Shown here piece by piece: positions 33,368-54,061 of a DNA stretch of 64,000 nucleotides. Where the stretch lies: assembly GCF_003334335.1 (NCBI RefSeq), contig NZ_QOWQ01000001.1; one strand, 5' to 3'. Every line of letters starts with the position of its first letter. The first letter of the stretch is position 1. Source of the stretch: Escherichia coli (GTDB lineage: Bacteria > Pseudomonadota > Gammaproteobacteria > Enterobacterales > Enterobacteriaceae). Made by a program: the position numbers and the translations under genes. The notes under the pieces were generated by a model, which was not told the origin of the DNA, did no database searches, and saw only the letters and a list, made by a program, of their open reading frames with translations.

Positions 33368-34099
33368 TCAGGCTGTTACCAAAGAAGTTGCAACCTGGCG
33401 CTCATCAGAAATAATGTGCGTTACCTCATCCAGATGCCCGATGCGGGCTTCCCCTGAACGATTAAATTTACTTTTATCAATCAATAACAACGATTGCGCG
33501 GCACGTTTTAATAGCATCGATTTGTAATCAGCGTTGATCGCATTGGAGTCCCACAGTGCGCCGCTGCTATCGATCCCTTCACAAGAAAAAATAAACAGAT
33601 CGATTTCCAGCGATTTAAGTTGGGAAATCAGCGAGGGATTGACGTAACAGCCATATTTGCGCTCAAGTGTGCCGCCGGAACTGATCAGTTGAATGCGTTC
33701 GCGTTTACCGAGTTCATGGCAAATCGGATGGCTATTGGTGAAGACCTGAATGTTGATGTCAGGCAACTGGCGTGCCAGATACCAGCAAGTTGAACTGGCG
33801 TCTAAGGCTATCACCATCCCTTCTTCAATCCACGCGAGCGCCTCGCGCGCGATATCTGCTTTATGCGCATAATGGCTTTTCAGCCTGATGTGAAAGGGAT
33901 CGCCACTGTCTTGATTTTGACGGTGGATATATTTAGCGCGTCCATGATTGCGCAGAATTTTACCCTGCGTCTGTAATTCATTGAGATCGCGACGAATGGT
34001 TTCTTTACTGACCTTTAGCTGTTCAGAGAGAGCTTCCGTGGTCAGGCTGGTATGGTTCAGCAGCAGGTCGACTATCGCTTGCTGGCGTGCCGCTTTCAT
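33368..34099 (-). CDS. fucR: DeoR-family fucose regulon activator FucR
   Basis: 243-aa protein from ATG at 34097..34099; N-terminal helix-turn-helix. Confidence 0.9.
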   Translation of the reverse strand: MKAARQQAIVDLLLNHTSLTTEALSEQLKVSKETIRRDLNELQTQGKILRNHGRAKYIHRQNQDSGDPFHIRLKSHYAHKADIAREALAWIEEGMVIALDASSTCWYLARQLPDINIQVFTNSHPICHELGKRERIQLISSGGTLERKYGCYVNPSLISQLKSLEIDLFIFSCEGIDSSGALWDSNAINADYKSMLLKRAAQSLLLIDKSKFNRSGEARIGHLDEVTHIISDERQVATSLVTA

Positions 34100-36107: not shown

Positions 36108-37883
36108 TTAACGCTTGTACAACGGACCGTAGTTCTGGCAAGCGCGGTAATCCTGGCCTTCAATATCCATGCCGTGCGCAGCCCAGGCAGAAGGACGATA
36201 CACTTTGGTCTCTTCAACGTTGTGCATACATACCGGGATACGCAGCATGGAGGCGAGAGTGATAAAGTCTGCGCCAACGTGGCCGATGGTCAGAACCCCA
36301 TGGTTAGCGCCCCAGTTCGCCATTACCGAGTACACATCCGTAAACGGCCCTTTACCGGTGAGGCGCGGTGCAAACCAGGTGGTTGGCCAGGTTGAGTTGG
36401 TGCGTTTGTTGAGGATGTCATGCACATCCTTCGGCAATTCCACGCTCCAGCCTTCCGCGATTTGCAGTACCGGTCCCAGGCCTTTGATGATGTTGACACG
36501 AGTCATGGTGAACGGGACGCCGCCTTCGGTAAGGAAGCGGGAAGAGTAACCGCCGCCACGGAAGTATTCGTGGATCGCCGGGCACCATTCGGTAGCGGCG
36601 AGGCAAGCGTCAGCCTCTTGCTGAGAGATTTCCCAGTGTGGCTTCATCGTCGGGTTACCTTCGCTGTCGCGTTGTTTACAGGAACCGTCCAGCGCAGCAG
36701 AACCGGAGTTGATCAAATGGATGATGCCGTGTTCTGCCAGTCCATCCAGTTTATGCCCCGTTACACGCTCAATTGCTTCTGGTGACCAGTAGGTACGCAC
36801 ATCGGCAAATACCTGAGCGGTGCCGGTGAGCTGGTGACCCATTAGCATTGCCACGCCGTTAAGACTGTCGTTTTCGGTCGCCACGACAAAGGGTTCGCGC
36901 ACGCCATTCCAGTCAAATGAACTGTTGAGGATCGCTTCGGCGGTGTCACCATTGGGATATTGATCGGTCCAGTGACGTTGCCCCTGGAAGCCCGCAGCGA
37001 TGGCGTTGTAGCCAAGTGATTCTTCCACGCGACCAATATCGGCCAGTTTGCTGTTGCCTTGCATCATGTCGCGGATACACATCGCCATCAGTAAACTTTC
37101 GCGCAGAACTGCGCGGCTTTGCTCGGCATTACGTTGATACTGTTTGTTATTTTCATCTTCGCCATAGCGGAAGTTTTTATCAGCCCAGGCCAGTGCCATT
37201 TCCAATTCGGCTTCGTCGTAAATCTTCTGATCGATACGGCGACGCAGTTCGGTCATATCCACCGCCTGGACTTTCATTCCCAGCCAGGATTCAAAGAAGT
37301 TGTGATCAACAATGGAACCGGCGATACCCATCGAAACGCCGCCCAGCGACAGATAGCTTTTACCTTTCATGCTGGCGACGGCCAAACCGGCGCGGGCAAA
37401 GCGCAGCAGTTTTTCTTCAACATCGGCAGGAATCGATGTGTCATCGGCATCCTGAACGTCATGACCGTAAATGGAGAATGCTGGGATGCCTTTCTGGCTG
37501 TGAGCTGCCAGAGCCGCTGCCAGGTAAACAGCGCCGGGGCGTTCAGTGCCGTTAAAGCCCCAAATGGCCTTCGGGCGGGTTGGATCCATGTCGATGGTTT
37601 CACTGCCATAGCACCAGCAAGGCGTTACCGTAATGGTGAGGCCTACATTCTGACTGCTGAATTTTTCTTCGCAAGCAGCGGCTTCAGCCATACCCGCGAT
37701 ACAGGTATCGGAAATGACACACTCGACGGCAGCTCCGCAGGCATGGCGCAGTTTCTCGGTCAGCAGTGCGGCCGTAGCTTTCGCCATATTCATTGTTTGT
37801 TCTTCAAGCGACTCACGAACACCCATGCGACGACCGTCAATAACCGGGCGGATACCAATTTTCGGTAAGCTGATTTTTTTCAT
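36108..37883 (-). CDS. fucI: L-fucose isomerase FucI
   Basis: 591-aa ORF. Confidence 0.95.
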
Positions 37884-37915
37884 TACAGATTCCTCACTTT
37901 ATTCGGAAAATATGT

Positions 37916-39232
37916 TCAGTTAGTTGCCGTTTGAGAACGGAAACGGGCAAAGATAAAGATGACCGCGAAGCAGAGTGCGGGGATCAGTTCAGCAGTGGGG
38001 ATGTTGCCCGCCGCGTCACTGACAAAACCCATGACCGGAGTGACAATACCGCCGCCAATAATGGTCATAACGATGAAGGACGAACCATATTTGGTGTCCT
38101 GGCCGAGATTCTTAATGCCCAGCGAGAAGATTGTTGGGTACTGAATCGACATAAAGGCGCTGCATAAAGTCAGGGCTATTAAGCCCACATGACCGCCAGC
38201 GAAGGCTGAGATCAGGCACAGTGCCATAGCGATTAATGCGTAGGCGGCCAGGACTTTGTGTGGTGCGAAGCGACTGATGAGCCAGGTACCGGTGAAACGA
38301 CCAATAAAGAAGCACACCATGGTTCCGGTTAAATAGTTAGCGGCAAAGCCTGCAGTCATACCTGGAATTTCTTCTACAGCGTAGCGAATCAAATAGCTCC
38401 AGCAGGCCGTTTGTGCGCCGACATAGCAGAATTGCGCTAATACCGCCCAGCGCCAGTGGCGAATACGCGCCAGGCGAGAAAGCGATGCGGAGAACGATCC
38501 TTGTTTGGCGTCACTGTGATTATCACTCTGCAATGCCGGGAATTTCGTCAGCATGATCAGCAGGGCGACCAGTAACACGATAGCCACGATGATCATATAA
38601 GGTGTCTGTACCGATAATACCAGGCTGTGTTTATACGCACTCAATTGCTCTGGAGACATTTTATCGAGAACGTCTTGCGATTGATGTGGCACGTTAGACA
38701 AAATAAGACTTTGCCCAAAGACAACCGCGATAATTGCGCCAAACGAGTTAAATGTTTGCGCAAGATTTAAGCGGAAGTGACCACTACTTTCCGGCCCTAA
38801 TACCGTAACAAAAGGGTTTGCGGCAGTTTCCAGACAACCTAATCCGGCTGCAATAATAAATAGGCCAACTAAAAATAAGGTGTAGTTCATTATTTCTGCG
38901 GCGGGCCAGAATAATGCAGCACCCAAGGCATATAAAAATAACCCGGTAATAATCCCTGCTTTATAACTGAGTTTTTTCATCAATATCCCAGCAGGGATTG
39001 GGATAATGAAATAACCAAAGTAAAAGGCCGATTGGATCAGGCCAGCCTGGAAATTTGTCAGCGTAAAAGCCTGCTGGAATTGAGGTAATAAAATGTCGTT
39101 AAGGTTATTGGCTACCGCCCAAAGAAAAAACAGTGAGCACAGCAGCGCGAATGGAATAATGTAACTTCTGCTTTGCCCTGCATCTTTATCTACCGCACGG
39201 TAACTCTGCGTTTGTATTGATGTGTTTCCCAT
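37916..39232 (-). CDS. fucP: L-fucose:H+ symporter FucP (MFS)
   Basis: 438-aa multi-pass ORF. Confidence 0.95.
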   Translation of the reverse strand: MGNTSIQTQSYRAVDKDAGQSRSYIIPFALLCSLFFLWAVANNLNDILLPQFQQAFTLTNFQAGLIQSAFYFGYFIIPIPAGILMKKLSYKAGIITGLFLYALGAALFWPAAEIMNYTLFLVGLFIIAAGLGCLETAANPFVTVLGPESSGHFRLNLAQTFNSFGAIIAVVFGQSLILSNVPHQSQDVLDKMSPEQLSAYKHSLVLSVQTPYMIIVAIVLLVALLIMLTKFPALQSDNHSDAKQGSFSASLSRLARIRHWRWAVLAQFCYVGAQTACWSYLIRYAVEEIPGMTAGFAANYLTGTMVCFFIGRFTGTWLISRFAPHKVLAAYALIAMALCLISAFAGGHVGLIALTLCSAFMSIQYPTIFSLGIKNLGQDTKYGSSFIVMTIIGGGIVTPVMGFVSDAAGNIPTAELIPALCFAVIFIFARFRSQTATN

Positions 39233-39778
39233 AGCATCCTCTTAGGTTCAGAAGCTTAAGCACGTAATCGGTTATGTTTTCAAAAGTGCAAAACCAGCGA
39301 GTTCGGGCTTCATATCAGTGAATATTTGCCTGTCTGAAATGAACTCATGGATTCATTTTCAAATAAAAAACGCTCTGTAATATGACGGCGGTCACACTTA
39401 TTAGCTAGAAGGTGACTTTATGTGACTACCATCACTTTAATAATCGAAATTTCATGCCCGTTTCAGAAAATAAATCATAAAAAACACAAATCAGATGACC
39501 GTATTAATTGTTTGTGCCGAAAACGGTCATTCCGGGCTTGGAGGAATAGAAAAATGACCGTTTTGATAAATATTTTTAAGAGCGGTCATTTTTAATGGGG
39601 TTATAAAAAGAGAACTTGCAGTTATTTACTGTGATTAGTTGAACCAGGTCACAAAATATAAGCTTGTGAATTTCTTTCTTGTTAATCAGGAAGAAGATGG
39701 TGGGTAATTAAACGGCTAATTCAATAGTGTGAAAGGAACAACATTATTGCCCTGTTTTGAATCAGAGAGAGGTAGCTA
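39233..39778. promoter_or_regulatory. Divergent fucPIKUR / fucAO control region
   Basis: 546-bp AT-rich spacer; inverted-repeat pairs ATGACCGT...ACGGTCAT at 39495..39530 and 39554..39589, related motif at 39382..39395, CRP-like TGTGA-N6-TCACT at 39421..39436. Confidence 0.6.
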
Positions 39779-40426
39779 ATGGAACGAAATAAACTTGCTC
39801 GTCAGATTATTGACACTTGCCTGGAAATGACCCGCCTGGGACTGAACCAGGGGACAGCGGGGAACGTCAGTGTACGTTATCAGGATGGGATGCTGATTAC
39901 GCCTACAGGCATTCCATATGAAAAACTGACGGAGTCGCATATTGTCTTTATTGATGGCAACGGTAAACATGAGGAAGGAAAGCTCCCCTCAAGCGAATGG
40001 CGTTTCCATATGGCAGCCTATCAAAGCAGACCGGATGCCAACGCGGTTGTTCACAATCATGCCGTTCATTGCACGGCAGTTTCCATTCTTAACCGATCGA
40101 TCCCCGCTATTCACTACATGATTGCGGCGGCTGGCGGTAATTCTATTCCTTGCGCGCCTTATGCGACCTTTGGAACACGCGAACTTTCTGAACATGTTGC
40201 GCTGGCTCTCAAAAATCGTAAGGCAACTTTGTTACAACATCATGGGCTTATCGCTTGTGAGGTGAATCTGGAAAAAGCGTTATGGCTGGCGCATGAAGTT
40301 GAAGTGCTGGCGCAACTTTACCTGACGACCCTGGCGATTACGGACCCGGTGCCAGTGCTGAGCGATGAAGAGATTGCCGTAGTGCTGGAGAAATTCAAAA
40401 CCTATGGGTTACGAATTGAAGAGTAA
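39779..40426 (+). CDS. fucA: L-fuculose-phosphate aldolase FucA
   Basis: 215-aa class II aldolase ORF. Confidence 0.95.
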   Translation: MERNKLARQIIDTCLEMTRLGLNQGTAGNVSVRYQDGMLITPTGIPYEKLTESHIVFIDGNGKHEEGKLPSSEWRFHMAAYQSRPDANAVVHNHAVHCTAVSILNRSIPAIHYMIAAAGGNSIPCAPYATFGTRELSEHVALALKNRKATLLQHHGLIACEVNLEKALWLAHEVEVLAQLYLTTLAITDPVPVLSDEEIAVVLEKFKTYGLRIEE

Positions 40427-52720: not shown

Positions 52721-54061
52721 ATGGCGACACAATCCAGTCCTGTTATTACTGATATGAAAGTCATTCCGGTGGCAGGGCATGACAGCATGTTGCTTAATAT
52801 TGGTGGGGCACATAACGCATATTTCACCCGCAATATTGTGGTACTCACCGATAACGCCGGGCATACCGGCATTGGTGAAGCGCCGGGCGGAGATGTGATT
52901 TATCAGACGCTTGTCGATGCTATTCCGATGGTTCTGGGCCAGGAAGTTGCGCGACTGAATAAAGTGGTCCAGCAGGTGCATAAAGGTAATCAGGCCGCCG
53001 ATTTTGATACCTTCGGTAAAGGTGCCTGGACCTTTGAATTACGCGTTAACGCCGTGGCGGCGCTGGAAGCCGCTTTGCTTGACCTGCTAGGTAAGGCGCT
53101 GAATGTTCCGGTCTGCGAACTGTTAGGGCCAGGCAAGCAACGCGAGGCTATTACCGTCCTCGGTTATCTGTTTTATATCGGTGATCGGACCAAAACCGAT
53201 CTTCCTTATGTGGAAAATACGCCGGGCAACCATGAGTGGTATCAGTTGCGGCATCAGAAAGCAATGAACAGCGAAGCCGTTGTGCGTCTGGCGGAAGCCT
53301 CACAGGATCGCTACGGCTTTAAAGATTTCAAACTTAAGGGCGGCGTGTTACCTGGCGAGCAAGAAATCGACACTGTTCGTGCATTGAAGAAACGCTTCCC
53401 GGATGCGCGGATTACCGTTGATCCCAACGGTGCATGGCTGCTTGATGAAGCCATTTCTTTATGCAAAGGGCTGAATGATGTTCTTACCTATGCCGAAGAT
53501 CCATGCGGCGCAGAACAGGGCTTCTCCGGACGTGAAGTGATGGCGGAATTTCGACGGGCGACCGGCTTGCCCGTCGCGACTAACATGATCGCCACCAACT
53601 GGCGCGAAATGGGTCATGCGGTGATGCTCAATGCGGTAGATATTCCACTTGCCGATCCGCACTTCTGGACGCTTTCCGGTGCAGTCCGTGTGGCGCAGCT
53701 TTGCGACGACTGGGGGCTGACCTGGGGCTGCCATTCTAATAACCATTTCGATATCTCTCTGGCGATGTTTACCCATGTGGGCGCGGCGGCACCGGGTAAT
53801 CCTACCGCTATCGATACCCACTGGATTTGGCAGGAGGGCGATTGTCGCCTGACCCAAAATCCGCTGGAGATTAAAAACGGAAAAATTGCCGTTCCTGATG
53901 CGCCCGGTCTGGGCGTGGAACTGGACTGGGAACAGGTACAAAAGGCACATGAGGCCTATAAACGTCTGCCTGGCGGTGCGCGTAACGACGCAGGTCCGAT
54001 GCAGTACCTGATCCCCGGCTGGACCTTTGACCGTAAACGTCCCGTTTTCGGCCGTCATTGA
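52721..54061 (+). CDS. gudX: Glucarate dehydratase-related protein GudX
   Basis: 446-aa enolase-superfamily protein from ATG 52721; tandem paralog of gudD. Confidence 0.9.

What the first reader, a model, noticed from the sequence alone, without database searches (positions are those of the whole stretch)
39382..39589. Two near-identical inverted-repeat pairs in the divergent fuc control region
Between fucP and fucA, ATGACCGT at 39495..39502 faces ACGGTCAT at 39523..39530 with a 20-bp spacer, and ATGACCGT at 39554..39561 faces GCGGTCAT at 39582..39589 with the same spacing. A compressed version ATGACGGCGGTCAC sits at 39382..39395, and a CRP-like TGTGA-N6-TCACT at 39421..39436. The regular spacing and repetition look like operator half-sites for a multimeric regulator; FucR (DeoR family) is the obvious candidate. 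I cannot tell from memory whether these exact sites are the mapped FucR operators.
Basis: seen in the sequence. Interest (0 to 1): 0.3.

Follow-up and report, generated by a model that had tools for sequence, protein, structure and literature searches.

The report
FucR and CRP sites of fuc control region
The repeated ATGACCG/CGGTCAT words between fucP and fucA of E. coli are binding half-sites for the fucose activator FucR; two are already published and mutationally validated, so the finding is real but essentially known.

Summary
The window is the E. coli fuc regulon and every coordinate in the finding is correct. The right arms of both inverted pairs are the published FucR sites OFucR2 (39517-39531) and OFucR3 (39576-39590). 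Mutating them cut fucose-induced PfucAO activity by about 30% and more than 50-fold (Zhang 2024, PMC11011485). The "compressed version" at 39382-39395 is not a FucR site. It is the validated CRP site OCrp0, and the CRP-like site at 39421-39436 fits the published position of OCrp1.

Comparison of 47 fucP-fucA spacers adds detail I did not find in the papers I could read. The spacing inside each pair is fixed (29 bp in 44/47; 29/30 bp in 39/47). The distance between the two pairs drifts from 19 to 52 bp. Each pair sits at a fixed distance from a CRP site.

This suggests two rigid FucR-CRP modules, one per promoter. Against an obligatory pair, a published truncation that keeps only the right arm of pair 2 retains about 70% activity.

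Verdict: real, functional and already known. The added architecture is incremental. Interest is low.

The parts
39453..39463 (-). FucR-type half-site S0 (AAACGGGCATG read on the minus strand; core ATGCCCG at 39454-39460). It may be one of the 'putative OR0/OR1' operators of Zhou 2025.
   Evidence: Motif scan. It is conserved in all but one of the 23 aligned spacers, usually as ATGACCGTTT. It lies 28.5 bp from the OCrp1 centre in 39/47 spacers and 41/42 bp from S1.
39494..39504 (-). FucR-type half-site S1, the left arm of pair 1 (core ATGACCG at 39495-39501).
   Evidence: The centre-to-centre distance to S2 is 29 bp in 44/47 spacers. It is removed in the published V5 truncation without loss of PfucAO activity.
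39521..39531 (+). FucR half-site S2, the right arm of pair 1. It lies inside the published OFucR2 (ccgaaaaCGGtCAtt, 39517-39531).
   Evidence: Exact match to the published sequence. The published mutation gives about 30% loss of fucose-induced PfucAO.
39553..39563 (-). FucR-type half-site S3, the left arm of pair 2 (core ATGACCG at 39554-39560). It is a perfect 12-nt inverted copy of S2. It is not named in the text of the papers I could read.
   Evidence: (I5: 12/12 complementary to 39520-39531). S3-S4 is 29/30 bp in 39/47 spacers, whereas S2-S3 varies from 19 to 52 bp.
39580..39590 (+). FucR half-site S4, the right arm of pair 2. It lies inside the published OFucR3 (ttaagagCGGtCAtt, 39576-39590), the site essential for PfucAO induction.
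   Evidence: Exact match. The published mutation gives a >50-fold loss under fucose. It lies 58.5/59.5 bp from the OCrp2 centre in 42/47 spacers.
39378..39399 (.). CRP site OCrp0 (taaTaTGAcggcggTCACActt).
   Evidence: Exact match to the sequence given in Zhou 2025. The conservation pattern TATGA-N6-TCACA with a variable N6 is shown.
39405..39408 (.). CTAG target of the IS5 insertion that activates fucAO and silences fucPIK. It lies between OCrp0 and OCrp1.
   Evidence: Zhou 2025 gives -374 to -371 from the fucA ATG. This matches the window sequence.
39418..39439 (.). CRP site that I equate with the published OCrp1 (TGTGActaccaTCACT; core at 39421-39436).
   Evidence: It scores 9/10 against the CRP half-site consensus and lies 39/40 bp from OCrp0 in all 47 spacers. 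The papers place OCrp1 on the fucA side of the IS5 target. Its sequence is not given in the text I could read.
39635..39656 (.). CRP site OCrp2 (ttagtTGAaccaggTCACAaaa), essential for PfucAO. Its centre at 39645.5 is -70.5 from the published TSS.
   Evidence: Exact match. The published mutation gives a 14- to 350-fold loss.
39706..39716 (+). PfucAO -10 element (AATTAA, 39706-39711) and the 5'RACE transcription start (C at 39716).
   Evidence: Zhang 2024. Coordinates checked.
39725..39746 (.). CRP site OCrp3 (tagTGTGAaaggaacaACAtta), inside the fucA 5'UTR.
   Evidence: Exact match. The published mutation gives about 30% loss.
33368..34099 (-). fucR, the DeoR/GlpR-family activator that recognises the half-sites.
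   Evidence: NCBIfam NF007720 'L-fucose operon activator', 508 bits against a cut-off of 259.

Best explanation
The repeats are DNA half-sites (consensus AAACGGKCATT, invariant CGGnCA) for the fuculose-1-phosphate-activated regulator FucR. There are five of them, S0 to S4, in the non-transcribed DNA between the divergent fucPIKUR and fucAO promoters.

Shown by published work: S2 (OFucR2) and S4 (OFucR3) are needed for fucose induction of PfucAO. S4 is essential, and it acts only together with CRP at OCrp2.

Inferred here from conservation: S1/S2 and S3/S4 are inverted-repeat units with a fixed 29-bp centre-to-centre spacing and an A+T-rich spacer. Each unit is most likely bound cooperatively by two DNA-binding domains of one FucR oligomer.

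The five sites appear to form two rigid modules.
- OCrp0-OCrp1-S0-S1-S2 serves PfucPIKUR.
- S3-S4-OCrp2 serves PfucAO.

In each module the dyad of the FucR pair lies a whole number of helical turns from a CRP site (about 8.0 and about 7.0 turns). FucR and CRP would therefore sit on the same DNA face, and FucR could stabilise CRP on its weak site, which then recruits RNA polymerase. The two modules are joined by a linker of free length, so they are not phase-locked to each other.
For: - Published identity of the sites. OFucR2 and OFucR3 match the window exactly at 39517-39531 and 39576-39590. Their mutation lowers induced PfucAO by about 30% and more than 50-fold. The motif came from FucR DAP-seq with 'CGG and CA most conserved'.
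- Independent recovery of the motif. Site logos from 44 species give invariant C4 G5 G6 C8 A9 at all five sites.
- Specificity. In each of about 45 20-kb loci with the fucP<->fucA layout, the only cluster of motif hits lies in that spacer. It has the pattern - - + - + in 32 loci and a partial version of it in the rest. Inverted pairs with an N22 spacer are almost confined to it.
- Spacing. S1-S2 is 29 bp in 44/47 spacers and S3-S4 is 29/30 in 39/47. OCrp1-S0 is 28.5 in 39/47 and S4-OCrp2 is 58.5/59.5 in 42/47. S2-S3 ranges from 19 to 52 bp.
- Phasing. OCrp1 to the S1/S2 dyad is 84-86 bp, and the S3/S4 dyad to OCrp2 is 73-74.5 bp. Dyad to dyad is 47.5-81.5 bp.
- An independent context. In Serratia sp. 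DD3 (L057) fucA is not next to fucP, yet it keeps one perfect pair 58.5 bp from a CRP-like site.
- Conservation. Core columns agree with the majority base at 0.89, against 0.63 for the surrounding spacer.
- The regulator. fucR is present and matches the FucR equivalog model.
Against: - The published V6 truncation starts at about 39568. It removes S2 and S3 and keeps S4 alone, yet it retains about 70% of induced PfucAO activity. That is the same loss as the OFucR2 point mutation. S3 is therefore not needed for maximal activity in that assay.
- Mutating S2, which spacing assigns to the fucP-side module, still costs PfucAO 30%. The modules are therefore not fully independent.
- No binding or mutational data exist for S0, S1 or S3 in what I could read.
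- The oligomeric state of FucR is unknown to me, and half-sites 29 bp (about 100 Å) apart are unusually far for one dimer.
- Whole-turn phasing was computed with an assumed 10.5 bp per turn.
- I could not see the figures that define the 'putative OR0/OR1' operators. I also could not query RegulonDB, EcoCyc or RegPrecise, so part of this architecture may already be recorded.
Confidence: 0.78

Rival explanations
1. The five copies are independent single FucR sites whose orientation decides which promoter they serve. Plus-strand copies (S2, S4) would serve fucAO and minus-strand copies (S0, S1, S3) would serve fucPIKUR. The inverted-pair appearance would then be a by-product of interleaving two sets of sites in a short divergent spacer.
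For: S4 alone supports about 70% of induced PfucAO activity. The published model assigns two operators to each promoter. The two arms of a pair vary independently at the K position: 27 concordant against 22.8 expected, and 16 against 14.5.
Against: Interleaving alone does not predict an invariant 29-bp spacing inside pairs while the S2-S3 distance drifts from 19 to 52 bp. L057 keeps both arms upstream of a fucA gene that has no divergent fucP partner. Photorhabdus has a third complete pair with the same 29-bp spacing.
Confidence: 0.18
2. The inverted repeats act through nucleic-acid structure, as a DNA cruciform or an RNA hairpin, rather than as protein-binding sites.
For: As single-stranded DNA the E. 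coli sequence folds better than shuffles. The z-score is -6.5 for 39549-39594 and -1.9 for 39490-39535.
Against: The stems are only 8-12 bp long with loops of about 20 nt. The arms do not covary across species, and the 7-mer cores of the two arms are identical in only 2/44 and 8/44 species. Going by the published fucA start (39716) and the published placement of the fucP start on the fucP side of OCrp0, the region lies upstream of both transcripts. Rfam gives no match.
Confidence: 0.02
3. The words recur by chance in A+T-rich intergenic DNA, or they are bound by another factor such as SrsR or H-NS.
For: The spacer is 64% A+T, and an SrsR site and H-NS silencing have been proposed for it.
Against: None of 1000 shuffles reached even 3 copies in 100 bp. 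The G+C-rich core CGGnCA is the conserved part. The published data show dependence on FucR and not on SrsR.
Confidence: 0.02

Closest known systems
Published FucR operators OFucR2/OFucR3 (OR2/OR3) and CRP sites OCrp0-OCrp3 of the E. coli K-12 fucPIKUR/fucAO intergenic region (Zhang et al. 2024, PMC11011485; Zhou et al. 2025, PMC11894529; motif from Baumgart et al. 2021)
   Same: It is the same locus and the same sequence. The right arms of both pairs are OFucR2 and OFucR3. The 'compressed' element is OCrp0. The TGTGA-N6-TCACT element lies where OCrp1 is placed.
   Different: The text of those papers treats each 15-bp site singly and does not mention inverted repeats, half-sites or spacing. S3 (39554-39560) lies between OR2 and OR3 and is not named. 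OR0 and OR1 are called putative, and no sequence is given in the text or the supplements I could read.
Operator arrays of other DeoR/GlpR-family regulators, such as GlpR, DeoR and AgaR (recalled from general knowledge, not tested here)
   Same: A short motif is repeated several times over about 100-150 bp and recognised by an oligomeric winged-helix protein with a sugar-phosphate-binding C-terminal domain.
   Different: FucR is an activator, whereas most members of the family are repressors. The half-sites here are 29 bp apart centre to centre, rather than adjacent halves of a 16-20-bp palindrome. They are also locked in register with CRP sites.
Divergent, CRP-co-dependent sugar control regions such as malEp-malKp (MalT + CRP) and melAB (MelR + CRP) (recalled from general knowledge)
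   Same: Several activator sites and several CRP sites lie in one spacer between or upstream of promoters that lack good -35/-10 elements. The specific activator helps CRP occupy a weak site, as Zhang 2024 proposes for FucR.
   Different: The regulator family differs. Here the array appears to split into two separately spaced modules rather than one shared nucleoprotein complex.

Membership tests
FucR operator sites of the fuc regulon | Match to the FucR DNA motif (…AAACGGKCATT, with CGG and CA most conserved) | tested here: met
   All five sites carry CGGnCA. Logos from 44 species give invariant C4 G5 G6 C8 A9. The motif is quoted.
FucR operator sites of the fuc regulon | Identity with the published, mutationally validated OFucR2 and OFucR3 | tested here: met
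   Exact string matches at 39517-39531 and 39576-39590. They cover the right arms only.
FucR operator sites of the fuc regulon | Location in fuc promoter DNA and co-occurrence with fucR across species | tested here: met
   The only motif cluster in each 20-kb locus lies in the fucP-fucA spacer of loci that also encode FucR. Most loci with a different transporter layout have no cluster.
FucR operator sites of the fuc regulon | Direct binding of FucR with fuculose-1-P to each site (footprint or EMSA) | not testable with these tools
   What is available is DAP-seq evidence, which Zhang 2024 cites for OFucR2 only, and reporter mutagenesis for S2 and S4. Nothing is available for S0, S1 or S3.
Dimer/oligomer operator in which an inverted pair is the binding unit | Conserved orientation and spacing of the two arms | tested here: met
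   S1-S2 is 29 bp in 44/47 spacers and S3-S4 is 29/30 bp in 39/47. The neighbouring S2-S3 distance varies from 19 to 52 bp.
Dimer/oligomer operator in which an inverted pair is the binding unit | Both arms needed for function | tested here: inconclusive
   The published V6 truncation keeps S4 without S3 and retains about 70% of induced activity. That assay ran at full, auto-induced FucR levels. No affinity or cooperativity data exist.
CRP binding site (for the 'compressed' element at 39382-39395) | TGTGA-N6-TCACA symmetry with conserved arms and a free N6 | tested here: met
   TATGA-cggcgg-TCACA scores 9/10. The arms are conserved and the N6 varies in 23 species. It is identical to the published OCrp0, which Zhou 2025 reports as required for the IS5 fusion promoter.
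FucR half-site (for the 'compressed' element at 39382-39395) | Conserved CGG triplet of the FucR core | tested here: not met
   The CGG is replaced by TGG, CAG, TTG and others in other genera, while the CRP arms stay fixed.
Structured DNA/RNA hairpin | Compensatory changes that keep the two arms complementary | tested here: not met
   Concordance at the variable position is close to the independence expectation. Identical cores occur in only 2/44 and 8/44 species. There is no Rfam match.

The most novel reading that the evidence does not exclude
The true FucR operator is a widely spaced inverted repeat (ATGMCCG-N22-CGGKCAT, 29 bp centre to centre) and not a single 15-bp site. On this reading the fuc spacer holds two separately evolving, rigid FucR-CRP modules, [OCrp0-OCrp1-S0-S1-S2] for fucPIKUR and [S3-S4-OCrp2] for fucAO. 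In each module the FucR dyad and the CRP site lie on the same helical face. This would add at least one unrecognised functional site (S3). It would reassign OFucR2 primarily to the fucPIKUR module. It would also give a concrete geometric model for how a DeoR-family protein acts as an activator.
Probability: 0.45. Interest if true: 0.35.

Novelty: already known. Interest (0 to 1): 0.2.

Why it matters
The fuc regulon is a textbook system for experimental evolution, through propanediol growth by IS5 insertion, and for gut colonisation. FucR is the unusual activator in a family of repressors.

The sites themselves are already in the literature, so confirming them changes nothing. The small added value is a testable architectural model.
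- There are five half-sites in two fixed-spacing inverted pairs, each locked in register with a CRP site.
- This predicts which untested sites (S0, S1, S3) and which spacings should matter, especially for the still uncharacterised fucPIKUR promoter.
- It corrects the tempting misreading of the CRP site OCrp0 as a FucR site.

Tried and rejected
- RNA families. An Rfam scan of 39100-39900 at E<=1 found nothing.
- Promoters and terminators. The sigma-70 and terminator consensus scan of the spacer found none. This fits activator-dependent promoters but gives no positional help.
- Solved structures. A PDB sequence search with FucR gave no hit at 1e-3, so I have no structural template for half-site spacing.
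- Unavailable papers. Podolny 1999 and Baumgart 2021 are not held. The fucP transcription start and the DAP-seq peaks could therefore not be checked at source.
- OR0/OR1. I searched the text and supplements of Zhou 2025 for their sequences and found none. Onstead 2024 does not mention FucR.
- Other literature. Searches for other descriptions of FucR operator architecture, or for a RegPrecise regulog, found none.
- Intragenic copies. Five CGGTCAT copies lie in fucP and fucI (37250-38189). They lack the AAA flank and drift at synonymous positions in other species, so I rejected them as coding coincidences.
- Other fuc layouts. Loci with a different fuc gene arrangement mostly lack the array. They neither support nor refute the model, except L057.
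- Alternative pairing. S2/S3 is the perfect 12-nt everted repeat in E. coli (I5). I rejected it as the unit because its spacing is not conserved.
- Extra pair match. The pair-pattern match at 53150-53185 has one mismatch per arm and is at the chance rate seen elsewhere in 1.6 Mb of loci.

Full report
**What the window is.** The 546-bp stretch 39233-39778 is 100% identical to many E. coli chromosomes and is found in 5025 of 5426 complete genomes. It lies between fucP (37916-39232, minus strand) and fucA (39779-40426, plus strand). fucI, fucK, fucU and fucR follow fucP, and fucO follows fucA. The fucR product matches the NCBIfam equivalog 'L-fucose operon activator' at 508 bits against a cut-off of 259, and it belongs to the DeoR/GlpR family.

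**The observation.** Every coordinate in the finding is correct. The core CGGTCAT occurs 16 times in the window on both strands, and four copies lie within 95 bp here. In 1000 dinucleotide-preserving shuffles of the window, no 100-bp stretch held more than two copies. The repeat finder also shows a fifth, slightly degenerate copy, ATGCCCGTTT at 39454-39463. It further shows a perfect 12-nt everted repeat between 39520-39531 and 39553-39564.

**What is already published.**
- Zhang et al. 2024 (PMC11011485) took a FucR motif from the DAP-seq study of Baumgart et al. 2021, in which CGG and CA are the most conserved bases.
- They named two sites, OFucR2 (ccgaaaaCGGtCAtt) and OFucR3 (ttaagagCGGtCAtt). 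These strings sit at 39517-39531 and 39576-39590.
- Mutating OFucR2 lowered fucose-induced PfucAO by about 30%. Mutating OFucR3 lowered it more than 50-fold. Neither mattered without fucose.
- The same paper maps the fucA transcription start to the C at -63, which is 39716. It also validates CRP sites OCrp2 (39635-39656) and OCrp3 (39725-39746).
- Zhou et al. 2025 (PMC11894529) give OCrp0 as taaTaTGAcggcggTCACActt, which is 39378-39399. They place the IS5 target CTAG (39405-39408) between OCrp0 and OCrp1.
The TGTGA-N6-TCACT at 39421-39436 lies where OCrp1 is placed.
[quoted passage not shown] They give no sequences in the text or supplements I could read.
- Neither paper uses the words inverted repeat, palindrome, oligomer or dimer for FucR.

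**Phylogenetic footprinting.** A scan of one genome per species returned 80 fucA loci from Enterobacterales. Forty-six of them have the fucP<->fucA layout with a spacer I could extract. Together with the window this gives 47 spacers.

An alignment of 23 genera shows sharp islands of conservation at the four CRP sites and at five copies of the FucR word.

Using the consensus AAACGGKCATT, the five sites have these core centres:

| Site | Core centre | Strand |
|---|---|---|
| S0 | 39457 | - |
| S1 | 39498 | - |
| S2 | 39527 | + |
| S3 | 39557 | - |
| S4 | 39586 | + |

In each of about 45 20-kb loci with this layout, the only cluster of motif hits lies in this spacer. It shows the full - - + - + pattern in 32 loci and a partial version in the rest. 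The taxa include Escherichia, Salmonella, Citrobacter, Klebsiella, Raoultella, Kluyvera, Yokenella, Kosakonia, Hafnia, Buttiauxella, Edwardsiella, Rahnella, Yersinia and, in part, Photorhabdus.

Site logos give invariant C4, G5, G6, C8 and A9, which independently reproduces the DAP-seq statement. Core columns agree with the majority base at 0.89, against 0.63 for the rest of the spacer between OCrp1 and OCrp2.

At the 'compressed' element, TATGA and GTCACA are conserved while the six bases between them vary, including the CGG. This fits CRP and not FucR.

**Spacing.** This is the informative part (47 spacers).

| Interval | Distance (bp) | How constant |
|---|---|---|
| OCrp0 to OCrp1 | 39/40 | all 47 |
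| OCrp1 to S0 | 28.5 | 39/47 |
| S0 to S1 | 41/42 | 41/47 |
| S1 to S2 | 29 | 44/47 |
| S2 to S3 | 19 to 52 | variable |
| S3 to S4 | 29/30 | 39/47 |
| S4 to OCrp2 | 58.5/59.5 | 42/47 |
| OCrp2 to fucA ATG | variable | variable |

- Two of the three S1-S2 exceptions are mis-anchored Mangrovibacter spacers.
The everted S2/S3 repeat, perfect in E. coli, is not.
- The array splits into two rigid blocks. OCrp0-OCrp1-S0-S1-S2 spans 137.5-139.5 bp, and S3-S4-OCrp2 spans 87.5-89.5 bp. A linker of free length joins them.
- The dyad of S1/S2 lies 84-86 bp from the centre of OCrp1, about 8.0-8.2 turns at 10.5 bp per turn. The dyad of S3/S4 lies 73-74.5 bp from OCrp2, about 7.0 turns.
- The dyad-to-dyad distance ranges from 47.5 to 81.5 bp with no preferred phase.
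- In Serratia sp. DD3 (L057) fucA follows a same-strand ORF and is not next to fucP. Even so, a single perfect pair (AATGCCCGTTT-N-AAACGGGCATT, 29 bp) sits 58.5 bp from a CRP-like site upstream of fucA.
- In Photorhabdus, S0 has a genuine partner 29 bp away, giving a third pair.

**Protein site or nucleic-acid structure.**
- The E. coli sequence folds well as single-stranded DNA, with z-scores of -6.5 and -1.9.
- Across species the arms vary independently at the K position. Concordant cases number 27 against 22.8 expected, and 16 against 14.5 expected.
- The two 7-mer cores of a pair are identical in only 2/44 and 8/44 species.
- Going by the published fucA start and the published placement of the fucP start beyond OCrp0, the region lies between the two divergent transcription starts.
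- There is no Rfam match.
- This is the behaviour of protein half-sites, each held near a consensus. It is not the behaviour of a selected hairpin.

**Evidence that cuts the other way.** The primer sequences in the supplement fix the published truncations.
- V5 starts at 39502 and removes S0 and S1. It keeps full PfucAO activity.
- V6 starts at about 39568 and removes both S2 and S3, keeping S4. It keeps about 70% of activity.
- V7 starts at 39613 and loses most activity.
- The V6 loss equals that of the OFucR2 point mutation. S3 therefore adds nothing measurable to maximal PfucAO activity in a strain with a normally auto-induced fuc regulon.
- This argues against an obligatory two-arm operator. 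It is compatible with a partner arm that matters for affinity or cooperativity at low FucR, or for the fucPIKUR promoter, which has not been dissected.
- S2 belongs by spacing to the fucP-side block, yet it contributes 30% to PfucAO. The two blocks therefore communicate to some extent.

**Most likely mechanism.**
- FucR bound to fuculose-1-phosphate occupies five half-sites. Two of these are shown by published work and three are inferred here.
- Two inverted pairs with A+T-rich 20-bp spacers are each contacted by two winged-helix domains of one FucR oligomer. This is inferred.
- Each pair is held on the same helical face as a weak CRP site. FucR can therefore stabilise CRP, which recruits RNA polymerase. 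This is the model of Zhang et al. for OFucR3 and OCrp2, and I extend it here to the fucP side by geometry.
- I put the claim that all five are FucR sites at about 0.9. I put the pair-and-module architecture at about 0.5.

**Novelty and verdict.** The finding is real and functional, but its substance is published. The FucR motif dates from 2021, two sites were validated in 2024, and four operators were drawn in 2025. All four CRP sites are named as well.

The increments from this analysis are modest and are hypotheses for bench work:
- the fifth site;
- the unnamed S3;
- the invariant intra-pair spacing;
- the two-module layout and same-face phasing with CRP;
- the correction that the 'compressed' element is OCrp0.

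I could not consult RegulonDB, EcoCyc or RegPrecise, or the figures of the two papers, so some of this may already be recorded.

Noticed in passing
window 39479-39489: A conserved block (AAAMCCACAG in most genera, AAAAACACAAA in E. coli) sits exactly 29 bp from the S0 centre, where a right-arm partner of S0 would lie. In Photorhabdus (L075-L080) that position is a true ATTCGGTCAT half-site. It may be a degenerate half-site retained for another reason. This is unexplained.
   Followed up: partly
window 39339-39356: A strongly conserved palindrome ATGAAyTCATGrATTCAT is centred at 39347.5, 41 bp from the OCrp0 centre. That is around the presumed fucP transcription start if OCrp0 is a class II (-41.5) site. 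The minus-strand base at 39347 is T, which agrees with the 'bold T' TSS mentioned in Zhou 2025. Whether it is a promoter or initial-transcript element, or another operator, is unknown.
   Followed up: no
window 39664-39669 and 39683-39688: Zhang 2024 places the PfucAO -35 hexamer 'TTGtgA' at -96 to -91 from the fucA ATG. In the sequence, TTGTGA occurs only at 39664-39669 (-115 to -110), and the bases at -96 to -91 read TAATCA. The -10 (AATTAA, 39706-39711) and the TSS (39716) do match. The -35 assignment in that paper appears internally inconsistent.
   Followed up: partly
L081 383-1080 (E. coli EC25, NZ_CM169476.1): One human-gut E. coli strain carries an IS1A element inside the fucP-fucA spacer. 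It lies in the fucP leader side, roughly 70-80 bp from the fucP start codon, outside the FucR array.
   Followed up: partly
window 37250-38189 (fucI 5' part and fucP 3' part): Five further exact CGGTCAT cores lie within 940 bp of coding sequence. They lack the AAA flank, fall in different reading frames, and are not kept at synonymous positions in other species. They are coding coincidences.
   Followed up: yes
L057 8718-10000 (Serratia sp. DD3): This is a fuc locus of a different layout. fucA is preceded by four same-strand ORFs (4968-9716) instead of fucP. From its sequence I take the nearest (8718-9716) to be a LacI-type regulator and the others to be ABC-transporter genes, but neither was checked with a tool. 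The locus still has one perfect FucR-type inverted pair and a CRP-like site at the canonical 58.5-bp distance.
   Followed up: partly
window 39233-39778 against E. coli genomes: 401 of 5426 complete E. coli genomes have no match to the fuc control region. The locus is probably absent or disrupted in about 7% of strains.
   Followed up: no
window 53150-53185: A pair-pattern match (ATTACCG-N22-CGGTGAT, one mismatch per arm) occurs far from the fuc genes. Its frequency matches the background rate of such matches in 1.6 Mb of related loci, so it is likely chance.
   Followed up: partly
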